Source of the DNA: an uncultured Acidimicrobiia bacterium
Lineage (GTDB): Bacteria > Actinomycetota > Acidimicrobiia > Spongiisociales > JAENVV01
DNA length: 33,438 nucleotides
Assembly: GCA_965366365.1 (NCBI GenBank)
Contig: CBDUEV010000031.1
Location: 1 to 33,438 of the forward strand
Reading direction: 5' to 3'
The notes under the pieces were generated by a model that did no database searches, had not been told where the DNA came from, and saw only the letters and a program-made list of their open reading frames with translations. How positions within the stretch are numbered: the first letter of the stretch is position 1; each line of letters starts with the position of its first letter. Below, piece after piece: positions 5,395 to 20,308 of the stretch. The position numbers were made by a program, and so were the translations under genes.

Positions 5395-5501
5395 GCCCAG
5401 ACTCCTTGTGGATGTGGTTAGAGAATAGAAACCCCACCATCAAACACCAAAACCATTGGCGGCGCTCGGAATGCGGTACGACAACCTTGCTCGACCGGGT
5501 C

Positions 5502-5831
5502 CTACCCCACCCGCTCGCCACAGATGCACTGGTACTCGACGCCTTCAGGACCCGGCTCGGCCTGGTTGTACCGGAAGAAGACGAGAGCCTCGAGGGTGTC
5601 GCAGTGCGCCGCCAAGGCGACCTCTTCCAGCTCACGGGCCATGGGATTGAGCGCCTGGCGCAAACGGTGGGCTTGGTTGCGTATCTCGTCGAGCTGGTGT
5701 CGGGAGGTGGCCAGCTCGAACAGCGAGCCGCCGGTTCGGCGTAGTTCGTCGTGGCGACGCCACCGCGCCAGGAGCTCTTCGAATGTCGCTTCGAGAACCG
5801 GATGCAAAGACAGCCGCACGCCTTTCCTCAT
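5502..5831 (-). CDS. Hypothetical small protein (109 aa)
   Basis: The ORF exactly fills the gap between nuoA and the reductase gene. No clear Shine-Dalgarno and no recognisable domain. GC3 is moderately coding-like. Confidence 0.3.
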   Translation of the reverse strand: MRKGVRLSLHPVLEATFEELLARWRRHDELRRTGGSLFELATSRHQLDEIRNQAHRLRQALNPMARELEEVALAAHCDTLEALVFFRYNQAEPGPEGVEYQCICGERVG

Positions 5832-5897: not shown

Positions 5898-7148
5898 TCA
5901 GCCTGTCAGAGAGCGCGGGGCCAACCGAATCATGCCTTCGAGCATGTGGTAGGCCCGATCTCCGATATGGCGGTCTTCTTCCTCGAGGAGGTTGGCCATC
6001 ACCTTGAGCACCCATTCCATGAGCGGCTTCGAGTGGAGCCCGGTGTGTGCCAGCGTCCGCATGACCGACGGGTAACCGATCAGTTTCACGAAGAGACGGG
6101 CCATCCGGTAGTAATCGCCATACGTCTCATCGAGTTCGGCCGGGTAGCGCTGAAGGAGGCCCAGATCATCGGCGACGAGCGCCTCGTGAATGTGCTCGGC
6201 GGCGAGACGCCCGGTCTCGTATCCGTAGGCGATGCCCTCTCCGTTCCACGGATTGATCGCCCCCATGGCGTCGCCCACCACCACCCAGTTGGCACCGGCG
6301 CGCGGGCCCTTGGAGAAGGACATCAGCAGCTTGCCGCCTTTGGGTTCGGAGAGTTGCGCCTCCTCGGACAGTTCCCAATGCTTCGGCGCAGCCTCGACAT
6401 AGTTCGCCATCATCGTGGTGGTGTTGACGTCCTTCCAATGCCGGAAGGTGGACAACAGGCCAACCCCGACATTGACGGTGCCGTCCCCCAGTGGAAACAC
6501 CCACCCATAGCCGGGCATGGAGTTCCCTGACTTGTCGCGAATATCGAGCTGGCTCTCCATGAACCCGTCTTGGGACATGGGTGAGGAGAAATAGCCGCGA
6601 GCCGCCAGACCCAACGGGTAATCCTTGTTTCTGACCGTCCCGAGCAGGCGACCGAAACGAGACGTCGACCCGTCGGCCACGACAACGACCTTGGCGCTCA
6701 TGATCTCGGTCTCGTCACCCGACGAGAGCGTGACGCCGGCCAGGCGGCCGTCGATCACGTGCGGCTTGGCTGTGGTCTTTGCTCTGATGACCGCCCCCTC
6801 CTTCTCGGCGAGGCGCGCCACCTGATCATCGAGGTCCATGCGCCGGATCACGCCGCCCCAGTTCGGGTACTTCGAATGCTGTGGCCACTCGAGTTCGAGA
6901 TGCAGCGAATCGCCCGCATAGGAGCGCAAGCCGACGATCTTGTGGAACTCCTGGCTGGCGAAATCGAACCCCATTTTCTGCAGCTCATAGATCGACCGGG
7001 GGGTGAGTCCGTCGCCGCAGGTCTTCTCGCGGGGGTACTCGCTCTTCTCGACCAGGACGACCGAATGTCCCGATCGCGCCAACCAATAGGCTGCCGCCGA
7101 GCCGGCCGGCCCACCACCCACCACCACAACATCAGGAGTGTTCGTCAT
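5898..7148 (-). CDS. Geranylgeranyl reductase family FAD-dependent oxidoreductase (MenJ-like menaquinone reductase candidate)
   Basis: N-terminal DVVVVGGGPAGSAAAYWLARSGHSVVLVEK...PREKTCGDGLTPRS is the GGR-family FAD fold. ATG start at 7146-7148. Confidence 0.85.
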   Translation of the reverse strand: MTNTPDVVVVGGGPAGSAAAYWLARSGHSVVLVEKSEYPREKTCGDGLTPRSIYELQKMGFDFASQEFHKIVGLRSYAGDSLHLELEWPQHSKYPNWGGVIRRMDLDDQVARLAEKEGAVIRAKTTAKPHVIDGRLAGVTLSSGDETEIMSAKVVVVADGSTSRFGRLLGTVRNKDYPLGLAARGYFSSPMSQDGFMESQLDIRDKSGNSMPGYGWVFPLGDGTVNVGVGLLSTFRHWKDVNTTTMMANYVEAAPKHWELSEEAQLSEPKGGKLLMSFSKGPRAGANWVVVGDAMGAINPWNGEGIAYGYETGRLAAEHIHEALVADDLGLLQRYPAELDETYGDYYRMARLFVKLIGYPSVMRTLAHTGLHSKPLMEWVLKVMANLLEEEDRHIGDRAYHMLEGMIRLAPRSLTG

Positions 7149-7242
7149 GGCGACAGGCTACCGGCGCCACCGCGCTCTCGTGAATCGTCGGCAGCCGGGT
7201 CGGACGATTTCTCGCGCGTATCCAAGCCTGTCTATATTCGCT

Positions 7243-7260
7243 TTGTGAAACCAGTCACAA
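7243..7260 (+). promoter_or_regulatory. Rex operator (ROP-like) TTGTGAAACCAGTCACAA, overlapping the rex start codon, with a TATATT -10-like hexamer at 7233-7238
   Basis: 17 of 18 positions match the actinobacterial Rex consensus TTGTGAA-N4-TTCACAA (by direct comparison). The GTG start of rex at 7245 lies inside the site, and TATATT lies 7 nt upstream of GTG. Confidence 0.6.
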
Positions 7261-7868
7261 TCCCGAGAGCCACCGTGGCCCGATTGCCTCTGTACCTCCA
7301 GTGCCTGGAAGGACTCGGCACCGAAACGCCCACCGTCTCTTCACAAGAGCTGGCGGTTATCGCCAACGTCAACTCGGCCCAGGTCCGCAAGGACCTGTCC
7401 TACCTCGGCTCGCACGGCGTCCGTGGCGTCGGCTACCAGCGGGCGGCCTTGGTCGACCTGATCCGACAGGAACTGGGACTCACCCACGAGTGGCCGATCG
7501 TCATCATCGGGGCCGGGAACCTCGGTTCCGCCCTCGCCAACTACGGCGGTTTTGCTGCAGCTGGATTCACCCTGGTCAGCGTCTACGACGTGGATCACAC
7601 CAAGATCGGGTCGGCCGTCGGTGGCATCACCGTGCGGAGCCTCGATCAGCTCGAAGCGGATGTCGCCGCACGGGACGTGGCGATGGGCGTGGTCACGACC
7701 CCCGCGGCGGCCGCCCAGGAAAGCGTCAACCGCCTCGTGGCGGCAGGGGTTCGTTCGATCCTCAACTTCGCCCCGTTCGTGGTGCAGGTCCCGAAGGGTG
7801 TCGACGTCCGGCATGTCGATCTTTCGACCGAACTTCAGATTCTCAGCTTCTATCGGGCTCGTCGCTGA
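7245..7868 (+). CDS. rex: Redox-sensing transcriptional repressor Rex
   Basis: IPRATVARLPLYLQCL... is the Rex N-terminal wHTH signature, and the Rossmann fold follows (VIIGAGNLGSALANY). GTG is the only in-frame start upstream of the conserved IP.ATV motif. There is no room for a leader or Shine-Dalgarno, so the mRNA is probably leaderless. Confidence 0.9.
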   Translation: MKPVTIPRATVARLPLYLQCLEGLGTETPTVSSQELAVIANVNSAQVRKDLSYLGSHGVRGVGYQRAALVDLIRQELGLTHEWPIVIIGAGNLGSALANYGGFAAAGFTLVSVYDVDHTKIGSAVGGITVRSLDQLEADVAARDVAMGVVTTPAAAAQESVNRLVAAGVRSILNFAPFVVQVPKGVDVRHVDLSTELQILSFYRARR

Positions 7869-7882
7869 CGACCCGTAGGGAG

Positions 7883-8242
7883 CTATTCGATCTGGCGGTT
7901 CTGTTCCTGTTCGAAACGGCTCAGCGCCACCATGAACATGACGAACAGAATCGCTGCGCCGAACATGAACGTCAGCGGCAGGATGCGGATCTCGAAGGCG
8001 TTCAAGCCTTCGAAGTTGGTCGGGCGCGGGCCGCGCGGGGCGTACAGCACAAACAACAAGGAGTTGAGCGCGCTCCATCCGAAGATTCCCGCCCCGGAGA
8101 CCAGAAACGCCAGCCTCTTACCGAGGTTCGTCGCCAGGATGAGGTAAGCCGTGCCGAAGAACACCAGGAAGCTGACGATGGTGAGCAGAATGCCGGTGAA
8201 CATCAGGTTGGCAGAGAGAATCTCTCTCATGAGTTCGCGCAT
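7883..8242 (-). CDS. Small hydrophobic membrane protein (119 aa, about 3 TM), last gene of the bc-type operon
   Basis: The ATG lies 4 nt after the diheme cytochrome c stop. The protein is strongly hydrophobic. No recognisable family. Confidence 0.55.
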   Translation of the reverse strand: MRELMREILSANLMFTGILLTIVSFLVFFGTAYLILATNLGKRLAFLVSGAGIFGWSALNSLLFVLYAPRGPRPTNFEGLNAFEIRILPLTFMFGAAILFVMFMVALSRFEQEQNRQIE

Positions 8243-8245
8243 GGC

Positions 8246-9673
8246 CTACCTCAACCTCTCGCCGCGTAGGTATTGAATGAGCAAATCGAGATCGGCTTCC
8301 GAGAGCACTTGCCCGAACGCCGGCATGTAGCCTCGCCCGATCCCGTTGACGCCATAACCCACGCCCTCCTCGGAACCCTTACCCAAGAAATCCTTCATGT
8401 CGTCGGCCGTGAGGAACTGAACGTTGGCTCGGCCATCCCACAGGGCCGGTCCAAAGGCGCCGGAGCCGATAGGGGCGGTGTAGGCGGGACCTGACGAGTA
8501 GCCGGCCGTGTGGCAGCGTGCGCAATACGACTGATACAAGCCCACCGCCCGCTCGGCCTCGGCCAGGTTGCCGTCGAAGGTGGCGTCGGCGACAGCCTGG
8601 AGGTCGACGGCATAGTCCCGGTTCTCTTGGGCGGCGAGAAGGAACTCCAACCCGGCTTCCGCTTGCTCGCGCAGCACGTCGGCGCGTTCGACGGTCAGGG
8701 TGAGGCCGTTGACCTCCTCCTCGAGCTTGGCGACGGCGCCGCTGACCAGGACCAGGTCTCCTTCGCCGGTGCCGAGTGTGTCGGGGTTCTCGACGTCGGC
8801 CAAGATGGCTGCCAGCCCCGGGTAGCCCGTGGCGGCAGCCTCGGTGGTGATGGCGGTGATGGCGGCCTCGGCCGTGTCAGAAACACCGTCTTCGTCGGTG
8901 TCGATACCTTCTCCGGCGGCATCGAGCGCACTTCGACCGGATGCGGCCAGAGGTTCCAGGACGGCCAGGAAGCCTGGAGCGTCGTCGATCTCCTGCAGCA
9001 GAGCCATCTGCGCTTCGATCGAGCCTTCCACCCGTGCGTCGGCCTCGGCGAGCTCGCCGAGCGCAGCGCTCACCCGCCCGTCCACCTGGGCGAGGGCCTC
9101 CTCCTGCGAAATCTGAATCGACTTCAGATACTCGAGCACTTCGTCGATCTGCTGCTCGTTCATGGGGCCGCCGCCGTCGGTCCCCCAGGCGGGCATCGGC
9201 GAATTGGGGCGGCCGTAGACGAGCCAGAATGTGATCTCCTCGTCGTCGTACCGGTAGGTGATGTCATTGAGGGCGGGAGCCGTCCACGCGACGGTGACGC
9301 CGCTGCGCTTGTCCACATAGCCGGCGGCGCCTCCGACGAGATCCGGACCGTGACACGAAGCGCACGCGAACTCTTCCACGTGCTCCAAGCCGCGCTCCAA
9401 GCCCTCTTCCTCGAACTGATGGACGAATCCTTCCTGGCGATCGATCTCCCCGAGCCAGTACACGGGGATCGAGATGGCGAGGACAGCCGAGAGGATCACC
9501 GACACCGACAGCACTCGATCGAGGCGACGGTTCTCGAGTTCGTCGTCGGTCTTGTACGGGTCGAGGTTGGGAGCGATCTCGTTGGAGCTCCGGCCGCGCA
9601 TCCCGGAGGCGACCAGGAAGGCCAACCAGCCCAACGCGCCCAGGGCTACAACGACGATGACGATACTGCTCAT
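8246..9673 (-). CDS. Membrane-anchored diheme cytochrome c (QcrC-like) with a long acidic insertion
   Basis: N-terminal TM, two CxxCH motifs (CASCH, CARCH), and MPAWG/MPAFG Met-ligand motifs. The ATG lies 3 nt after the Rieske stop. Confidence 0.85.
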   Translation of the reverse strand: MSSIVIVVVALGALGWLAFLVASGMRGRSSNEIAPNLDPYKTDDELENRRLDRVLSVSVILSAVLAISIPVYWLGEIDRQEGFVHQFEEEGLERGLEHVEEFACASCHGPDLVGGAAGYVDKRSGVTVAWTAPALNDITYRYDDEEITFWLVYGRPNSPMPAWGTDGGGPMNEQQIDEVLEYLKSIQISQEEALAQVDGRVSAALGELAEADARVEGSIEAQMALLQEIDDAPGFLAVLEPLAASGRSALDAAGEGIDTDEDGVSDTAEAAITAITTEAAATGYPGLAAILADVENPDTLGTGEGDLVLVSGAVAKLEEEVNGLTLTVERADVLREQAEAGLEFLLAAQENRDYAVDLQAVADATFDGNLAEAERAVGLYQSYCARCHTAGYSSGPAYTAPIGSGAFGPALWDGRANVQFLTADDMKDFLGKGSEEGVGYGVNGIGRGYMPAFGQVLSEADLDLLIQYLRGERLR

Positions 9674-9676
9674 GCG

Positions 9677-10552
9677 TTATCCACCGATACAGCTCGGACC
9701 TTGGGGGTACTTCGCAGATTTCACGACGGCACGCTCTGACTCGATGACCTGGCCGGTCTTGATGATGAAACGGCCATCCCTGTCTTCAACCACGAAGCGA
9801 TCGAGATTCCGAGGGGCCGGGCCGGCTTCGTACTCTCCCGAGACGTTGTATTTGGACCCGTGGCAGGGGCACTCGAACCCCTGCGAGGCATCGCACCAGG
9901 GAACACGGCAGCCCAGGTGAACGCATTTCTGGAAGAGCGCCATCAAACCGCCCACGGCCACATTGGCTTCGCTGAATTGCGACCCGGAGAGAGCGTCATC
10001 GCCGATGGGCACGATCCAGGATTTCGCTTCCGGCCAGAACACCGGGGTGATCGATCCGTCGGCCTGGAAAATCTGATTCCGGATCTCGGTCACGTCCCCC
10101 GCATCCACGTCCGACCCGAATCCACCCTTCACGCGTGGCCAGGCAAAGGAGAAAGAAGCCAAACCGACCAGACCGAGGAAGCCGAAGAAGCTTCCGGCCA
10201 GAGCACGGGTGAAGAACATCCGGCGAGTCACGCCGGCCTCCATCGGCGACAGTTCGACGACCTGGCGCACCACCTCCGACCGGACCGCCGGGGCCGAAGG
10301 CTCACTCGGGGTTTCGGTATCCGGGGCCACCGTCTCCGCCGGCGCGACCGTGTCGGCCGATGCTTCGGTCGCCGCCCGGGCAGCGACGATCCCGGCTGGG
10401 ACTCCCTTGTCGGCCTTGCGGGCATCGCGATCGAGCGCGTCTTTCCAAGCGGCATCGCGGGTGCTTTGCCGGTAGGCGATTCCGAAGGCCGCCAAGGCGG
10501 CGAATACCGCCACGGCCCCTACGAGAAGGAAGATCAGGTTCTGCGTCGTCAT
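9677..10552 (-). CDS. Rieske [2Fe-2S] iron-sulfur subunit of the bc-type complex
   Basis: CVHLGC...CPCHGS boxes and N-terminal TM helices. ATG at 10550-10552 overlaps the upstream stop (ATGA). The ORF-track start at 10849 over-extends. Confidence 0.9.
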   Translation of the reverse strand: MTTQNLIFLLVGAVAVFAALAAFGIAYRQSTRDAAWKDALDRDARKADKGVPAGIVAARAATEASADTVAPAETVAPDTETPSEPSAPAVRSEVVRQVVELSPMEAGVTRRMFFTRALAGSFFGFLGLVGLASFSFAWPRVKGGFGSDVDAGDVTEIRNQIFQADGSITPVFWPEAKSWIVPIGDDALSGSQFSEANVAVGGLMALFQKCVHLGCRVPWCDASQGFECPCHGSKYNVSGEYEAGPAPRNLDRFVVEDRDGRFIIKTGQVIESERAVVKSAKYPQGPSCIGG

Positions 10553-11778
10553 TCGAGGTTCACCCAGTCCTTGATGTCGTCGAAGTAGATGCCGTCCGAC
10601 CATGGGTAGGTGAAGTTGAAGCCAGGACCTCGGAACAACACACCCAGGATGGTGAGCATGGCGGCCCCCATGATGAAGTACGTGTACATGAAGATGGCGA
10701 ACTTCCTGTCCGAGGGCTTGTTGGACGGATTCCGGTCGACGTAGGGAATCGCCATGAATCCGACGAGCCCCACGATGGTGGGAACCGTCACACCGGCGAT
10801 CTGCGGGTCGAAGTAGGAGAGAAGTTCCTGAAGTCCGAGGAAGTACCACGGCGCCTTGGAGGGGTTGGGGGTGGCGTTGAAATTGGCGGCTTCCAGCAGC
10901 GGCGCCTGCAGACTGACCGACATCACGATCAGAACGGCGGTCACGGCGAGGAGCACGGCGAACTCGGCGATCATGAGATGCGGCCAGGTGTTCACCTTGT
11001 CGGTGGGCTCAGCCTTGACCTGTTGAATCGCTTTCGCTTTGACGACCGTCAGCAAGCGCTGGGTGCGGACACCCTCTGGCGCGGTTTCGGCTGGAGCGGT
11101 TGGCCGGACTGCCGTGGCGACCGCCGCCCCCGCTCCACCCGCCGCCGGGGTTTCGACCGCGGAGGCCGCGGGCGCATCCTCTTGCGGGATCGGCAGGTCG
11201 ACCACCTCGGCCTCAGGTGCCGGTGGGGCCTCAGGTGCCGATGGGGCGGCCGGTTCAGGGGTTGCCGGTTCAGCATCTGCCGGTTCAGCATCTGCCGGTT
11301 CAGGGGTTGCCGGGGTTGGGGCCGCAGCGGGAGTCTCGGGTGCCTCGTCTCCGAGCATCTCTGCCAGTACTGCGGCTTCTGAGGCGCCTGTGGCTTTCGC
11401 CTTGGCCTCGACCGACCGTTGCAGCAGCGAAGCCGGCATTCCGGCGCGCTCGGCTGCGGCGGCATAGTCCACGGGACCGCCGGCCGGCGCCGGGGCAGGG
11501 GCGGCTGGCGCTGCCGGCTCCGGTGCCGGGGCCTCGGGTTCGGGAGCCTTCGGTGCCGGCGCCTCGGGTTCTGGCGCCTCGGGTTCTGGCGCGGTCGGCT
11601 CGGCGGGCGGCGCAGCTTCGGTCGATGCAGGAGTCGTCGCCTCGGTGGCCGCAGGGGCCACATCGATCGGAGGACCTTCGCCCTTCATCTCGGCGAGCAC
11701 CTGCTCGACCGGAATGCCGAGGGCTTTCGCCTTCGCTTCGGCAGACCGTCGGAGGAGATGCTCTGGGATGTCAGCCAT
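10549..11778 (-). CDS. Cytochrome b C-terminal (subunit IV / PetD-like) protein with a long N-terminal extension. The extension is two copies of a ~35-aa helical module plus Pro/Ala/Glu-rich linkers.
   Basis: C-terminal WPHLMIAEF...SKAPWYFLGLQELL...P (PEWY-type Qo motif, variant APWY). AAGGAG Shine-Dalgarno 10 nt upstream of ATG 11776-11778. Low-complexity PEPEAP repeats were seen. Confidence 0.8.
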   Translation of the reverse strand: MADIPEHLLRRSAEAKAKALGIPVEQVLAEMKGEGPPIDVAPAATEATTPASTEAAPPAEPTAPEPEAPEPEAPAPKAPEPEAPAPEPAAPAAPAPAPAGGPVDYAAAAERAGMPASLLQRSVEAKAKATGASEAAVLAEMLGDEAPETPAAAPTPATPEPADAEPADAEPATPEPAAPSAPEAPPAPEAEVVDLPIPQEDAPAASAVETPAAGGAGAAVATAVRPTAPAETAPEGVRTQRLLTVVKAKAIQQVKAEPTDKVNTWPHLMIAEFAVLLAVTAVLIVMSVSLQAPLLEAANFNATPNPSKAPWYFLGLQELLSYFDPQIAGVTVPTIVGLVGFMAIPYVDRNPSNKPSDRKFAIFMYTYFIMGAAMLTILGVLFRGPGFNFTYPWSDGIYFDDIKDWVNLE

Positions 11779-11790
11779 CGATGGTGCTCC

Positions 11791-12579
11791 TTACAGCGGC
11801 CCTGAGATGCCGCCGTCCTTGCGGACTCGCCAGAAGTGTACGGCCATGAATATGACGATGATGAACGGGAAGAAGAGGACGTGGAGGACATACCAGCGGA
11901 GGATGGTGTCGGCCGACACTTCCACCGCGCCCAGCAGCAAGAACTTCACCTGGCCGCCGAACACCGGCACGAAGCCCGCCATGTTGGTCCCCACTGTCAC
12001 GGCCCACAGGGCGAGTTGATCCCACGGGAGCAGATATCCGGTGAACGAAAGCAAGAGGGTGAGCAGGAGGAGGATCACACCCACGACCCAGTTGAACTCG
12101 CGGGGAGGCTTGTAGGCGCCGTGATAGAAGACCCGGGACATGTGCAGGAACACCGACAAGACCATGAGGTGGGCGCCCCATCGGTGCATGTTGCGCACCA
12201 GAGAACCGAAAGCCACGGCCGTGGACAGCTCTGCGGTGTCTGCGTAGGCCGCTTCCGCCGTCGGGGCGTAATAGAACATCAAGAAGATGCCGGTGATGGT
12301 CAGCAGGATGAACAAGAAGAAACTGATCCCACCCAGGCACAATGTATAGGAGAGGCGCACCCCATGTCGCTTCACCTTCACCGGATGAAGGTGATAGAGG
12401 ACGTTGTTCATGACGACATAGCTCCGGTTGCGCGGAGAGTCCGAATAGCCCTTCTTGAAAGGGGATCCTGGACGGAGAACCGACTCCATCACCTGTGAAC
12501 CATGGAGCCGACTCCACAGGTCGCTGCCGGCGGTCTTCGCCTTCTCGAGGAGGCCGGTATTTCCGTTTTCGTTCGCCAA
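11791..12579 (-). CDS. Cytochrome b6-type (split cytochrome b, N-terminal four-helix part)
   Basis: His pairs in helices B and D ([17 protein letters not shown]; [22 protein letters not shown]). TTG start with GGAG upstream; the exact start is uncertain. Confidence 0.88.
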
Positions 12580-20296: not shown

Positions 20297-20308
20297 CTGC
20301 AAACCGGT

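What the first reader, a model, noticed from the sequence alone, without database searches (positions are those of the whole stretch)
7149..7262. Near-consensus Rex operator overlapping the GTG start of rex itself, with a TATATT -10 seven nucleotides upstream: autoregulated, probably leaderless rex
TTGTGAAACCAGTCACAA (7243-7260) matches TTGTGAA-N4-TTCACAA at 17 of 18 positions. The only in-frame start upstream of the conserved Rex N-terminal IP.ATV.RLPLY motif is GTG 7245, which lies inside the operator. TATATT at 7233-7238 is placed correctly for a transcript starting at or near the GTG. The same 96-bp region also heads the divergent MenJ-like reductase gene, and rex lies beside the nuoABCD cluster. 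Rex classically controls nuo and quinone-related genes, yet no comparable site is visible upstream of nuoA.
Basis: partly seen in the sequence, partly recalled or inferred. Interest (0 to 1): 0.5.

Follow-up and report, generated by a model that had tools for sequence, protein, structure and literature searches.

The report
Rex operator inside leaderless rex start
The redox-sensing repressor gene rex of this uncultured Acidimicrobiia bacterium carries its own binding site across its GTG start codon and first five codons, directly after a -10 promoter box; this is a conserved but unsurprising rearrangement of the known Rex self-repression circuit.

Summary
TTGTGAAACCAGTCACAA (7243-7260) matches the Rex operator at 17 of 18 positions. 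It is the only Rex-type site in the 33-kb window (21.9 bits; next best 9.3). It overlaps GTG 7245, the only usable start of a bona fide rex gene.

Ten other lineages (60-77% protein identity) carry the palindrome in exactly the same register. The half-sites are conserved and the 4-nt spacer is free. Two non-coding T's lie upstream. Wobble bases are frozen in rare codons (Thr ACA, Lys AAA), so the constraint acts on DNA as well as protein.

A TANNNT box lies 6-8 nt upstream of the GTG in all 11 lineages, and there is no Shine-Dalgarno sequence. That is the actinobacterial leaderless signature.

In 54 of 81 more distant relatives the site instead sits just upstream of the -10 box, as footprinted in Streptomyces avermitilis.

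Best reading: NADH-responsive negative autoregulation, with the operator at about -2 to +16 of a leaderless promoter. Binding and the transcription start are inferred, not shown.

No Rex site precedes nuoA or any other gene in the window. The circuit is known; only the architecture is new. Interest is modest.

The parts
7243..7260 (.). Rex operator (ROP-type 18-bp inverted repeat TTGTGAA-ACCA-GTCACAA). It spans about -2 to +16 of the predicted transcript and covers the GTG start plus codons 2-5 and the first base of codon 6.
   Evidence: The same register is found in 10 other lineages. Wobble bases are frozen.
7233..7238 (+). -10 promoter hexamer TATATT (TANNNT), at -12 to -7 relative to G7245.
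   Evidence: A TANNNT box lies 6-8 nt upstream of the GTG in all 11 lineages. The geometry matches.
7245..7247 (+). GTG start codon of rex and predicted transcription start (leaderless). The codon is fixed as GTG by the operator half-site TTGTGAA.
   Evidence: All sequenced clade members have GTG here. A 5' GTG suffices for leaderless translation in mycobacteria.
7245..7868 (+). rex coding sequence (207 aa, stop included). It is monocistronic and convergent with the 119-aa gene at 7883-8242.
7206..7211 (+). Conserved GATTTC block at about -39 to -34 of the rex start. It may be a -35-like element; its role is unknown.
7155..7160 (-). TAGCCT -10 box of the divergent reductase gene, at -12 to -7 of its ATG (7148). 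That gene also has leaderless geometry.
   Evidence: 7 of 7 loci.
7180..7187 (-). CGATTCAC block at about -39 to -32 of the divergent gene's ATG. It mirrors the block upstream of rex.
5898..7148 (-). Divergent FAD-dependent geranylgeranyl-reductase-family gene (MenJ-like, below the MenJ equivalog cut-off).

Best explanation
The 18-bp palindrome at 7243-7260 is the operator through which Rex represses its own gene.

Proposed mechanism:
- RNA polymerase uses the -10 box TATATT (7233-7238) and starts at or within 1-2 nt of G7245. The transcript therefore begins with the GUG start codon and is leaderless.
- A Rex dimer bound at about -2 to +16 occludes the start site. This blocks open-complex formation or promoter escape when NADH/NAD+ is low. 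A rise in NADH releases Rex and derepresses rex.

Consequences of the operator lying inside the coding sequence:
- It fixes the start codon as GTG.
- It fixes the N-terminus as V/M-K-x-(V/I)-T-I.

This is a relocated version of the usual actinobacterial arrangement, in which the rex operator sits just upstream of the -10 box.

Shown here: the site, its statistical singularity, the identity of the gene, register-exact conservation with DNA-level constraint, and the promoter geometry.
Inferred: Rex binding, NADH response, the exact transcription start and leaderless translation.
For: - Site significance: 17 of 18 match, unique in the window, expectation 6e-4. It scores 21.9 bits on a matrix trained on other loci, equal to the training median of 22.0.
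- Gene identity: Rex by NCBIfam equivalog, Pfam and solved structures. The recognition-helix segment VRKDLSY is identical to Thermus Rex.
- Conservation: 10 further lineages at 60-77% protein identity have the palindrome at -17 from the Ile codon. Seven have 1 mismatch, three have 2 and one has 3.
- Pattern: the half-sites are conserved while the N4 spacer and the surrounding upstream DNA are diverged.
- DNA-level constraint, among the 9 lineages aligned (window included):
  - The third base of codon 4 is C in 9 of 9.
  - Thr5 is ACA in 8 of 9, although ACA is only 9% of Thr codons locally.
  - Lys2 is AAA in 7 of 9, although AAA is only 12% of Lys codons locally.
  - The wobble bases of the equally conserved Thr10 and Val11 are free.
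- The TT upstream of the GTG is non-coding and kept in 10 of 11 lineages.
- Promoter geometry: TANNNT lies 6-8 nt upstream of the GTG in all 11 lineages. No Shine-Dalgarno sequence is present, whereas nuoA has AAGGAG.
- Published parallels for the leaderless reading.
- Link to rex itself: 54 of 81 more distant relatives have a Rex-type site upstream of rex, and in 53 of 54 a TANNNT follows 5-8 nt later. This matches the footprinted S. avermitilis rex ROP at -39 to -17.
- Rex also acts at -3 to +25 on S. avermitilis cydA1.
Against: - There are no experimental data for this organism. The transcription start, Rex binding and NADH response are all inferred.
- Position 12 of the operator is never the consensus T in this clade (it is G or A).
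- The core TGTGA-N6-TCACA is also the CRP/GlxR consensus.
- The 11 lineages are phylogenetically related, so the counts are not independent events.
- Three lineages place the TANNNT box 7 nt from the GTG and one places it 8 nt away, so a 1-2 nt leader is possible.
- The nearest genome-resolved relatives (L001-L006, Ilumatobacteraceae-type MAGs) lack a good site.
Confidence: 0.75

Rival explanations
1. The palindrome is a binding site for a CRP/FNR-family regulator (GlxR/Crp type, TGTGA-N6-TCACA) rather than for Rex. In that case rex is controlled by cAMP or another signal.
For: The site reads TGTGA-AACCAG-TCACA, a perfect CRP-type core. Rex and CRP consensus sequences overlap, so sequence alone cannot separate them. 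This rests on established knowledge of both motifs.
Against: - The flanking positions typical of Rex sites (T1, A7, A18) are conserved in the clade.
- Rex-type sites accompany rex in 54 of 81 distant relatives despite a different position.
- The site upstream of rex is experimentally Rex-bound in Streptomyces.
- No CRP-family gene was seen among the window ORFs scanned against Pfam. That scan was not exhaustive.
Confidence: 0.06
2. The operator is real and Rex-bound, but rex is not leaderless. Either transcription starts further upstream, or translation starts at GTG 7275 as gene callers predicted. The operator would then lie in a 5' UTR and act as a roadblock.
For: - Gene callers started P0001 (99% identical), P0003 and P0012 at the internal GTG.
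- Spacing between the TANNNT box and the GTG is 7-8 nt in four lineages.
- The sigma-70 consensus scan found no full promoter.
Against: - A start at 7275 would delete IPRATV. That segment aligns to residues 2-5 onward of the solved Rex chains and to the start of PF06971.
- Neither GTG has a Shine-Dalgarno sequence, while nuoA has AAGGAG.
- TANNNT lies at a near-fixed distance from GTG 7245 in 11 of 11 lineages, while the surrounding DNA is diverged.
- In L098 an in-frame TAA lies five codons upstream of the GTG.
Confidence: 0.12
3. The palindrome is a by-product of protein-coding constraint on the Rex N-terminus and has no regulatory role.
For: 16 of the 18 bases lie in coding sequence, and Thr5 and Ile6 are invariant in the clade.
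Against: - The synonymous third positions are frozen in locally rare codons, while neighbouring conserved codons vary.
- The non-coding TT is conserved.
- Residues before IP are highly variable in all other Rex lineages.
- The sequence equals the motif found upstream of rex elsewhere.
Confidence: 0.03
4. The single operator controls both divergent genes, so Rex also represses the geranylgeranyl-reductase-family (MenJ-like) gene.
For: - Linkage of rex with this reductase gene is conserved: divergent in 7 loci and tandem downstream of rex in L093.
- Quinone and respiration genes are typical Rex targets.
Against: - The operator lies about 95-112 nt upstream of the reductase gene's predicted start (TAGCCT-N6-ATG). 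That is too far for steric repression.
- The TCGTGAA half-site-like sequence at 7178-7184 is present in only 3 of 7 loci.
- In L098 and L099 the operator is kept but the neighbour is an EF-G-like gene.
Confidence: 0.1

Closest known systems
Streptomyces Rex/ROP autoregulation of rex-hemACD (S. coelicolor; S. avermitilis rex-hemAC1DB, PMC5355995)
   Same: Same repressor family and the same 18-bp inverted-repeat operator (TTGTGAA-N4-TTCACAA). The operator sits at rex's own promoter, giving NADH-relieved negative autoregulation.
   Different: - In S. avermitilis the ROP is footprinted at -39 to -17, over the -35 region and spacer. Here it lies downstream of the -10 box, at about -2 to +16.
- Here it is inside the coding sequence of an apparently leaderless gene.
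- Here rex is monocistronic, not fused to hem genes.
S. avermitilis cydA1 ROP (footprint -3 to +25)
   Same: A Rex operator covers the transcription start and early transcribed region, implying the same steric mechanism.
   Different: The target is a respiratory oxidase operon, not rex. The operator does not overlap a start codon or coding sequence.
Rex-type sites upstream of rex in 54 of 81 metagenomic actinobacterial relatives
   Same: Same motif family (consensus TTGTGAAcgcgTGCACGA/AA), same gene, and TANNNT-driven short-leader or leaderless promoters.
   Different: The operator ends 5-8 nt upstream of the -10 box, at least 55 nt before the Ile codon. Their N-termini are Arg-rich (for example MxxRxRRR-IPEATV) and unconstrained by the operator.
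Actinobacterial leaderless genes (Cortes 2013, PMC3898074; Zheng 2011, PMC3160421; Shell 2015, PMC4633059)
   Same: TANNNT lies about 12 nt upstream of the start codon, there is no Shine-Dalgarno sequence, and the transcript has a 5' RTG codon.
   Different: The start site is not mapped here. The start codon is additionally part of a repressor operator.
CRP/GlxR binding sites (TGTGA-N6-TCACA)
   Same: The core palindrome is identical.
   Different: The conserved flanks and the phylogenetic association with rex point to Rex. No CRP-type regulator or CRP-type target context was seen.

Membership tests
Rex repressor (protein) | N-terminal winged-helix DNA-binding domain (PF06971) followed by a Rossmann NAD(H)-binding domain (PF02629) | tested here: met
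   PF06971 at residues 6-52 (E 1e-17) and PF02629 at residues 82-177 (E 3e-22).
Rex repressor (protein) | Scores above the curated equivalog cut-off and is similar to solved Rex structures | tested here: met
   NF003992 scores 286.3 bits against a cut-off of 226; 5zz5, 3ikt, 1xcb and 2vt2 at E 1e-44 to 1e-41. VRKDLSY and the GxGxxG motif are conserved.
Rex repressor (protein) | DNA binding relieved by NADH | not testable with these tools
   Needs EMSA or ITC with purified protein.
Rex operator (ROP) | 18-bp inverted repeat TTGTGAA-N4-TTCACAA | tested here: met
   17 of 18 positions; 21.9 bits on an independently trained matrix.
Rex operator (ROP) | Located within or next to a promoter so that binding interferes with RNA polymerase | tested here: met
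   the site starts 4 nt after the TANNNT box and covers the predicted +1. The promoter itself is predicted, not mapped.
Rex operator (ROP) | Conserved in orthologous loci beyond the neutral or coding expectation | tested here: met
   11 lineages share the register. Wobble bases and the non-coding TT are fixed, while the spacer and flanks are free.
Rex operator (ROP) | Physically bound by Rex | not testable with these tools
   Needs EMSA, footprinting or ChIP.
Leaderless gene | TANNNT -10 box about 7-12 nt upstream of the start codon | tested here: met
   the box lies at -12 to -7 in 7 lineages, -13 to -8 in 3 and -14 to -9 in 1. Criterion.
Leaderless gene | No Shine-Dalgarno sequence, and ATG or GTG as the first codon of the transcript | tested here: met
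   no Shine-Dalgarno motif upstream of 7245, whereas nuoA has AAGGAG. GTG is present in all lineages. Criterion.
Leaderless gene | Mapped 5' end of the mRNA coincides with the start codon | not testable with these tools
   Needs 5'-RACE, dRNA-seq or a metatranscriptome.
CRP/GlxR site | TGTGA-N6-TCACA palindrome | tested here: met
   The feature is shared with Rex sites, so it does not discriminate.
CRP/GlxR site | A cognate CRP-family regulator and association with CRP-type targets | tested here: inconclusive
   No CRP-family gene was found among the window ORFs scanned, but the rest of the genome is unseen. The site tracks rex across lineages.
MenJ (menaquinone reductase), divergent gene | Scores above the NCBIfam MenJ equivalog cut-off | tested here: not met
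   NF045655 scores 311.8 bits against a cut-off of 700. TIGR02032, the geranylgeranyl reductase family, is met (241 against 158.8).

The most novel reading that the evidence does not exclude
The palindrome may do double duty. As DNA it is the Rex operator. As the first 14 nt of a leaderless mRNA it forms a 5'-terminal hairpin (GUGA/UCAC, -3.3 kcal/mol, z = -2.8). That hairpin buries the GUG start codon and would add a translational brake to the same sequence. The element would then be a three-way overlap of operator, start-codon hairpin and N-terminal coding sequence, maintained across an Acidimicrobiia clade.
Probability: 0.1. Interest if true: 0.5.

Novelty: new variant of a known kind. Interest (0 to 1): 0.33.

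Why it matters
Rex autoregulation is textbook for Streptomyces, so the circuit itself is not new. Three points are new:

- **Operator relocation.** The comparison documents a clade-wide move of the operator from the upstream side of the -10 box to the downstream side. There it overlaps the first codons of a leaderless gene. It therefore dictates a GTG start and the N-terminal peptide V/M-K-x-(V/I)-T-I.
- **Annotation.** Gene callers mis-start rex in this clade. They either truncate into the DNA-binding domain or extend upstream. The operator plus the -10 box gives the correct start.
- **Regulon seed.** The site provides a starting motif for reconstructing the Rex regulon in uncultured Acidimicrobiia. 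Unlike Streptomyces, the nuo operon next door shows no Rex site.

Tried and rejected
- **Genome-collection relatives.** The seven loci have no consensus-type site within 3 mismatches. L001-L006 keep only a degenerate TCGTGAAC(T/t)(C/T)GGGAA sequence at the usual upstream position, so closer relatives had to be fetched by protein look-up.
- **Promoter and terminator scan.** It found nothing. The promoter lacks a consensus -35 element, as is common in Actinobacteria.
- **Second Rex site or half-site for the divergent gene.** TCGTGAA at 7178-7184 is present in only 3 of 7 loci. The conserved part there is GAATCG/CGATTC, not a Rex half-site.
- **Rex site upstream of nuoA.** TTGTGGA at 5406 has 5 mismatches overall, overlaps the AAGGAG Shine-Dalgarno sequence on the other strand, and is not conserved in L088.
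- **Other window positions.** The 4-mismatch hits at 20297 and 21848 are within chance (2.7 expected) and score low on the matrix.
- **Extra sites in clade loci.** None reached 14 bits or more apart from the rex sites.
- **Unavailable data.** The comparative Rex regulon paper PMC3294762 is not held.
- **Literature searches.** A search combining Rex with leaderless found nothing relevant. A search for Rex sites overlapping a start codon listed six papers, none opened and none by title or abstract about rex's own start codon.

Full report
**1. The observation**

Reading the window confirms every coordinate.
- TTGTGAAACCAGTCACAA occupies 7243-7260. It differs from TTGTGAA-N4-TTCACAA only at position 12 (G for T).
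- GTG 7245-7247 is in frame with the downstream ORF.
- TATATT is at 7233-7238, leaving 6 nt before the GTG.
- The intergenic region between the divergent genes is 7149-7244, or 96 bp.

The site is not a chance match.
- It is the only match with up to 3 mismatches in 33,438 bp.
- From base composition, a match with 1 mismatch or fewer is expected 6e-4 times per window.
- I trained a position weight matrix only on Rex-type sites from 44 other loci. It scores this site at 21.9 bits, equal to the training median of 22.0.
- The next best position in the window scores 9.3 bits. That is below the mean maximum of shuffled windows, 10.2.

**2. The gene**

ORF 7245-7868 is Rex.
- It has Pfam PF06971 plus PF02629.
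- It scores 286 bits on NCBIfam equivalog NF003992, against a cut-off of 226.
- Solved Rex structures match at E 1e-44 to 1e-41. The alignment begins at query residue 5-6, opposite residues 2-5 of the crystallised proteins. The recognition-helix segment VRKDLSY is identical to Thermus Rex.

The start codon follows from this.
- Translation must begin upstream of Ile6.
- The only canonical in-frame start in the intergenic region is GTG 7245.
- GTG 7275 and TTG 7284 would delete part of the DNA-binding domain.
- Neither GTG is preceded by a Shine-Dalgarno sequence, whereas nuoA in the same window has AAGGAG.

The window's closest genome relatives are Acidimicrobiia MAGs.

**3. Comparative evidence for the operator**

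The genome-collection relatives (58-59% identity) lack the site. A protein search found closer relatives. Their N-termini read V/M-K-x-x-T-I-P, or had been truncated or extended by gene callers. I fetched their DNA.

All ten further lineages carry the palindrome in exactly the same register, 17 nt before the Ile (or Met) codon. These are L088, L089, L090/91, L092, L093, L094/95, L096, L097, L098/99 and L100, at 60-77% protein identity.
- Seven have 1 mismatch, three have 2 and one has 3, counting the window.
- The half-sites are conserved.
- The 4-nt spacer (ACCA, ACGA, ACGG, TCAC, AAGC, AAGG, AAGA, GAAG, ACAG and others) is variable.
- The DNA upstream is essentially unconserved.

The constraint acts on DNA as well as protein. 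The counts below come from the 9 lineages aligned, window included.
- The third base of codon 4 is C in 9 of 9.
- Thr5 is ACA in 8 of 9, although ACA makes up only 9% of Thr codons in the window's genes.
- Lys2 is AAA in 7 of 9, although AAA makes up only 12% of Lys codons.
- The wobble bases of the equally conserved Thr10 and Val11 vary freely.
- The two non-coding T's before the GTG are kept in 10 of 11 lineages.
- All lineages use GTG, which the half-site TTGTGAA requires.

**4. Evidence for a leaderless promoter**

- A TANNNT hexamer lies 6 nt upstream of the GTG in 7 lineages, 7 nt in 3 and 8 nt in 1. The variants are TATATT, TATCGT, TACTGT, TAACGT, TAAGAT and TAAGGT.
- The chance of TANNNT at one fixed position in this composition is about 0.5% (my own arithmetic from the base composition).
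- In M. tuberculosis, TANNNT sits 7-12 bp upstream of 73% of primary transcription start sites, and no -35 consensus is found (PMC3898074).
- TANNNT about 12 bp upstream of the start codon is the computational signature of leaderless genes. These make up roughly 19% of genes in Actinobacteria (PMC3160421).
- A 5' ATG or GTG is necessary and sufficient for leaderless translation in mycobacteria (PMC4633059).
- In L098 an in-frame TAA lies five codons upstream of the GTG, which excludes longer N-termini there.
- The divergent reductase gene has the same geometry: TA(G/C)(C/G)CT-N6-ATG in 7 of 7 loci.

**5. How this relates to other rex promoters**

I examined 81 more distant relatives (55-62% identity) with enough upstream sequence.
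- 54 have a Rex-type site (3 mismatches or fewer) upstream of rex. Its consensus is TTGTGAAcgcgTGCACGA/AA.
- In every case the site is at least 55 nt before the Ile codon.
- In 53 of 54 a TANNNT follows 5-8 nt after the end of the site.

This is the arrangement footprinted in S. avermitilis. There the rex ROP TTGTGCACGCGTTCACAA is protected from -39 to -17. The cydA1 ROP is protected from -3 to +25 (PMC5355995).

The window's clade has therefore moved the operator from the upstream side of the -10 box to the downstream side. Other Rex targets already use that position.

**6. Mechanism**

Most likely, Rex bound at about -2 to +16 blocks initiation or promoter escape at its own leaderless promoter when NADH/NAD+ is low, and NADH releases it.
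- I put the confidence that this is a functional Rex autoregulatory operator at about 0.85.
- I put the confidence that the transcript is leaderless (a leader of 0-2 nt) at about 0.7.
- The combined statement is about 0.75.

Here rex is monocistronic and convergent with the 119-aa gene at 7883-8242. In the window, the loop therefore controls only Rex abundance.

**7. Rivals**

- **CRP/GlxR-type site.** It cannot be excluded from sequence, because the core is identical. It is disfavoured by the persistent association of the motif with rex, by the Rex-type flanks, and by the Streptomyces experiments.
- **Coding constraint alone.** Rejected by the wobble and non-coding positions.
- **A leadered transcript.** This remains possible (about 0.12) and would not change the autoregulation reading.
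- **Control of the divergent reductase gene.** Unlikely, because the operator is about 95-112 nt from that gene's predicted start. In addition, L098 and L099 keep the operator next to an unrelated neighbour.

**8.

- No Rex site lies upstream of nuoA or anywhere else in the window.
- The 'MenJ-like' gene is a geranylgeranyl-reductase-family protein that scores below the MenJ equivalog cut-off.

**9. Verdict**

The feature is real and conserved. It is a positional variant of the known Rex autoregulatory circuit, with a tidy operator, start-codon and coding overlap. It is useful for annotation and regulon reconstruction, and only modestly surprising.

Noticed in passing
window 7245-7290; proteins P0001, P0003, P0012, P0036, P0048, P0117, P0002, P0015, P0037: Automatic gene calls for rex in this clade are inconsistent. 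Many start at the internal GTG (MARLPLY...), which deletes the conserved IPxATV segment. Others are extended 20-30 residues upstream into the promoter. The GTG inside the operator is the consistent start.
   Followed up: yes
window 7155-7160 and 7180-7187 (minus strand), 7206-7211 (plus strand): Both divergent promoters share the same layout: a cGATT(T/C)C block at about -39 to -34, TANNNT at -12 to -7, and the start codon at +1. The GAATCG...CGATTC pair is an inverted repeat with variable spacing (2 to 27 nt) across relatives. Whether it is a lineage-specific -35-like element or a site for another factor is unknown.
   Followed up: partly
L092 93-1128; L093 1-4431; window 5898-10849: rex is always next to a conserved 119-121-aa gene with no family hit, plus cytochrome c and Rieske (bc1-type) genes. 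In L092 and L093 the order is inverted. There rex follows the 120-aa gene on the same strand, and in L093 the reductase gene lies 41 nt downstream of rex. The -10 box and operator module travels with rex.
   Followed up: partly
L098/L099 2484-2503: In this lineage the Ile codon after the operator is ATG (TTGTGAAACGAATCACG|ATG), so gene callers start at Met-Pro. The upstream neighbour is an EF-G-like GTPase instead of the reductase gene.
   Followed up: partly
L001-L006, about 60-75 nt upstream of the Ile codon: Ilumatobacteraceae-type relatives conserve GACTTCGTGAACTCGGGAA at the place where other lineages have the full operator. The left half-site is kept and the right half is degenerate. This may be a decayed or variant Rex site.
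   Followed up: no
window about 5440-5460 (minus strand), upstream of nuoA; L088 about 830-850: A T-rich block ATGGTTTTGGTGTTT is conserved between the window and L088 upstream of nuoA. nuoA itself has a canonical AAGGAG Shine-Dalgarno sequence and a TTG start. The function of the block is unknown.
   Followed up: no
window 5502-5831 (minus strand): A 109-aa ORF lies between nuoA and the reductase gene. It has no Pfam or NCBIfam hit. A 103-aa gene occupies the same position in L088.
   Followed up: no
window 10549-11778 (minus strand): A 409-aa ORF lies next to the cytochrome b-like ORF (11791-12579). It begins with two copies of a motif (LLRRSAEAKAKALG...VLAEM and LLQRSVEAKAKATG...VLAEM) separated by Pro/Ala/Glu-rich low-complexity sequence, followed by a membrane domain.
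   Followed up: no
window 7245-7258 (as RNA): If the transcript starts at G7245, its first 14 nt fold into a GUGA/UCAC hairpin (-3.3 kcal/mol, z = -2.8) that includes the start codon.
   Followed up: partly
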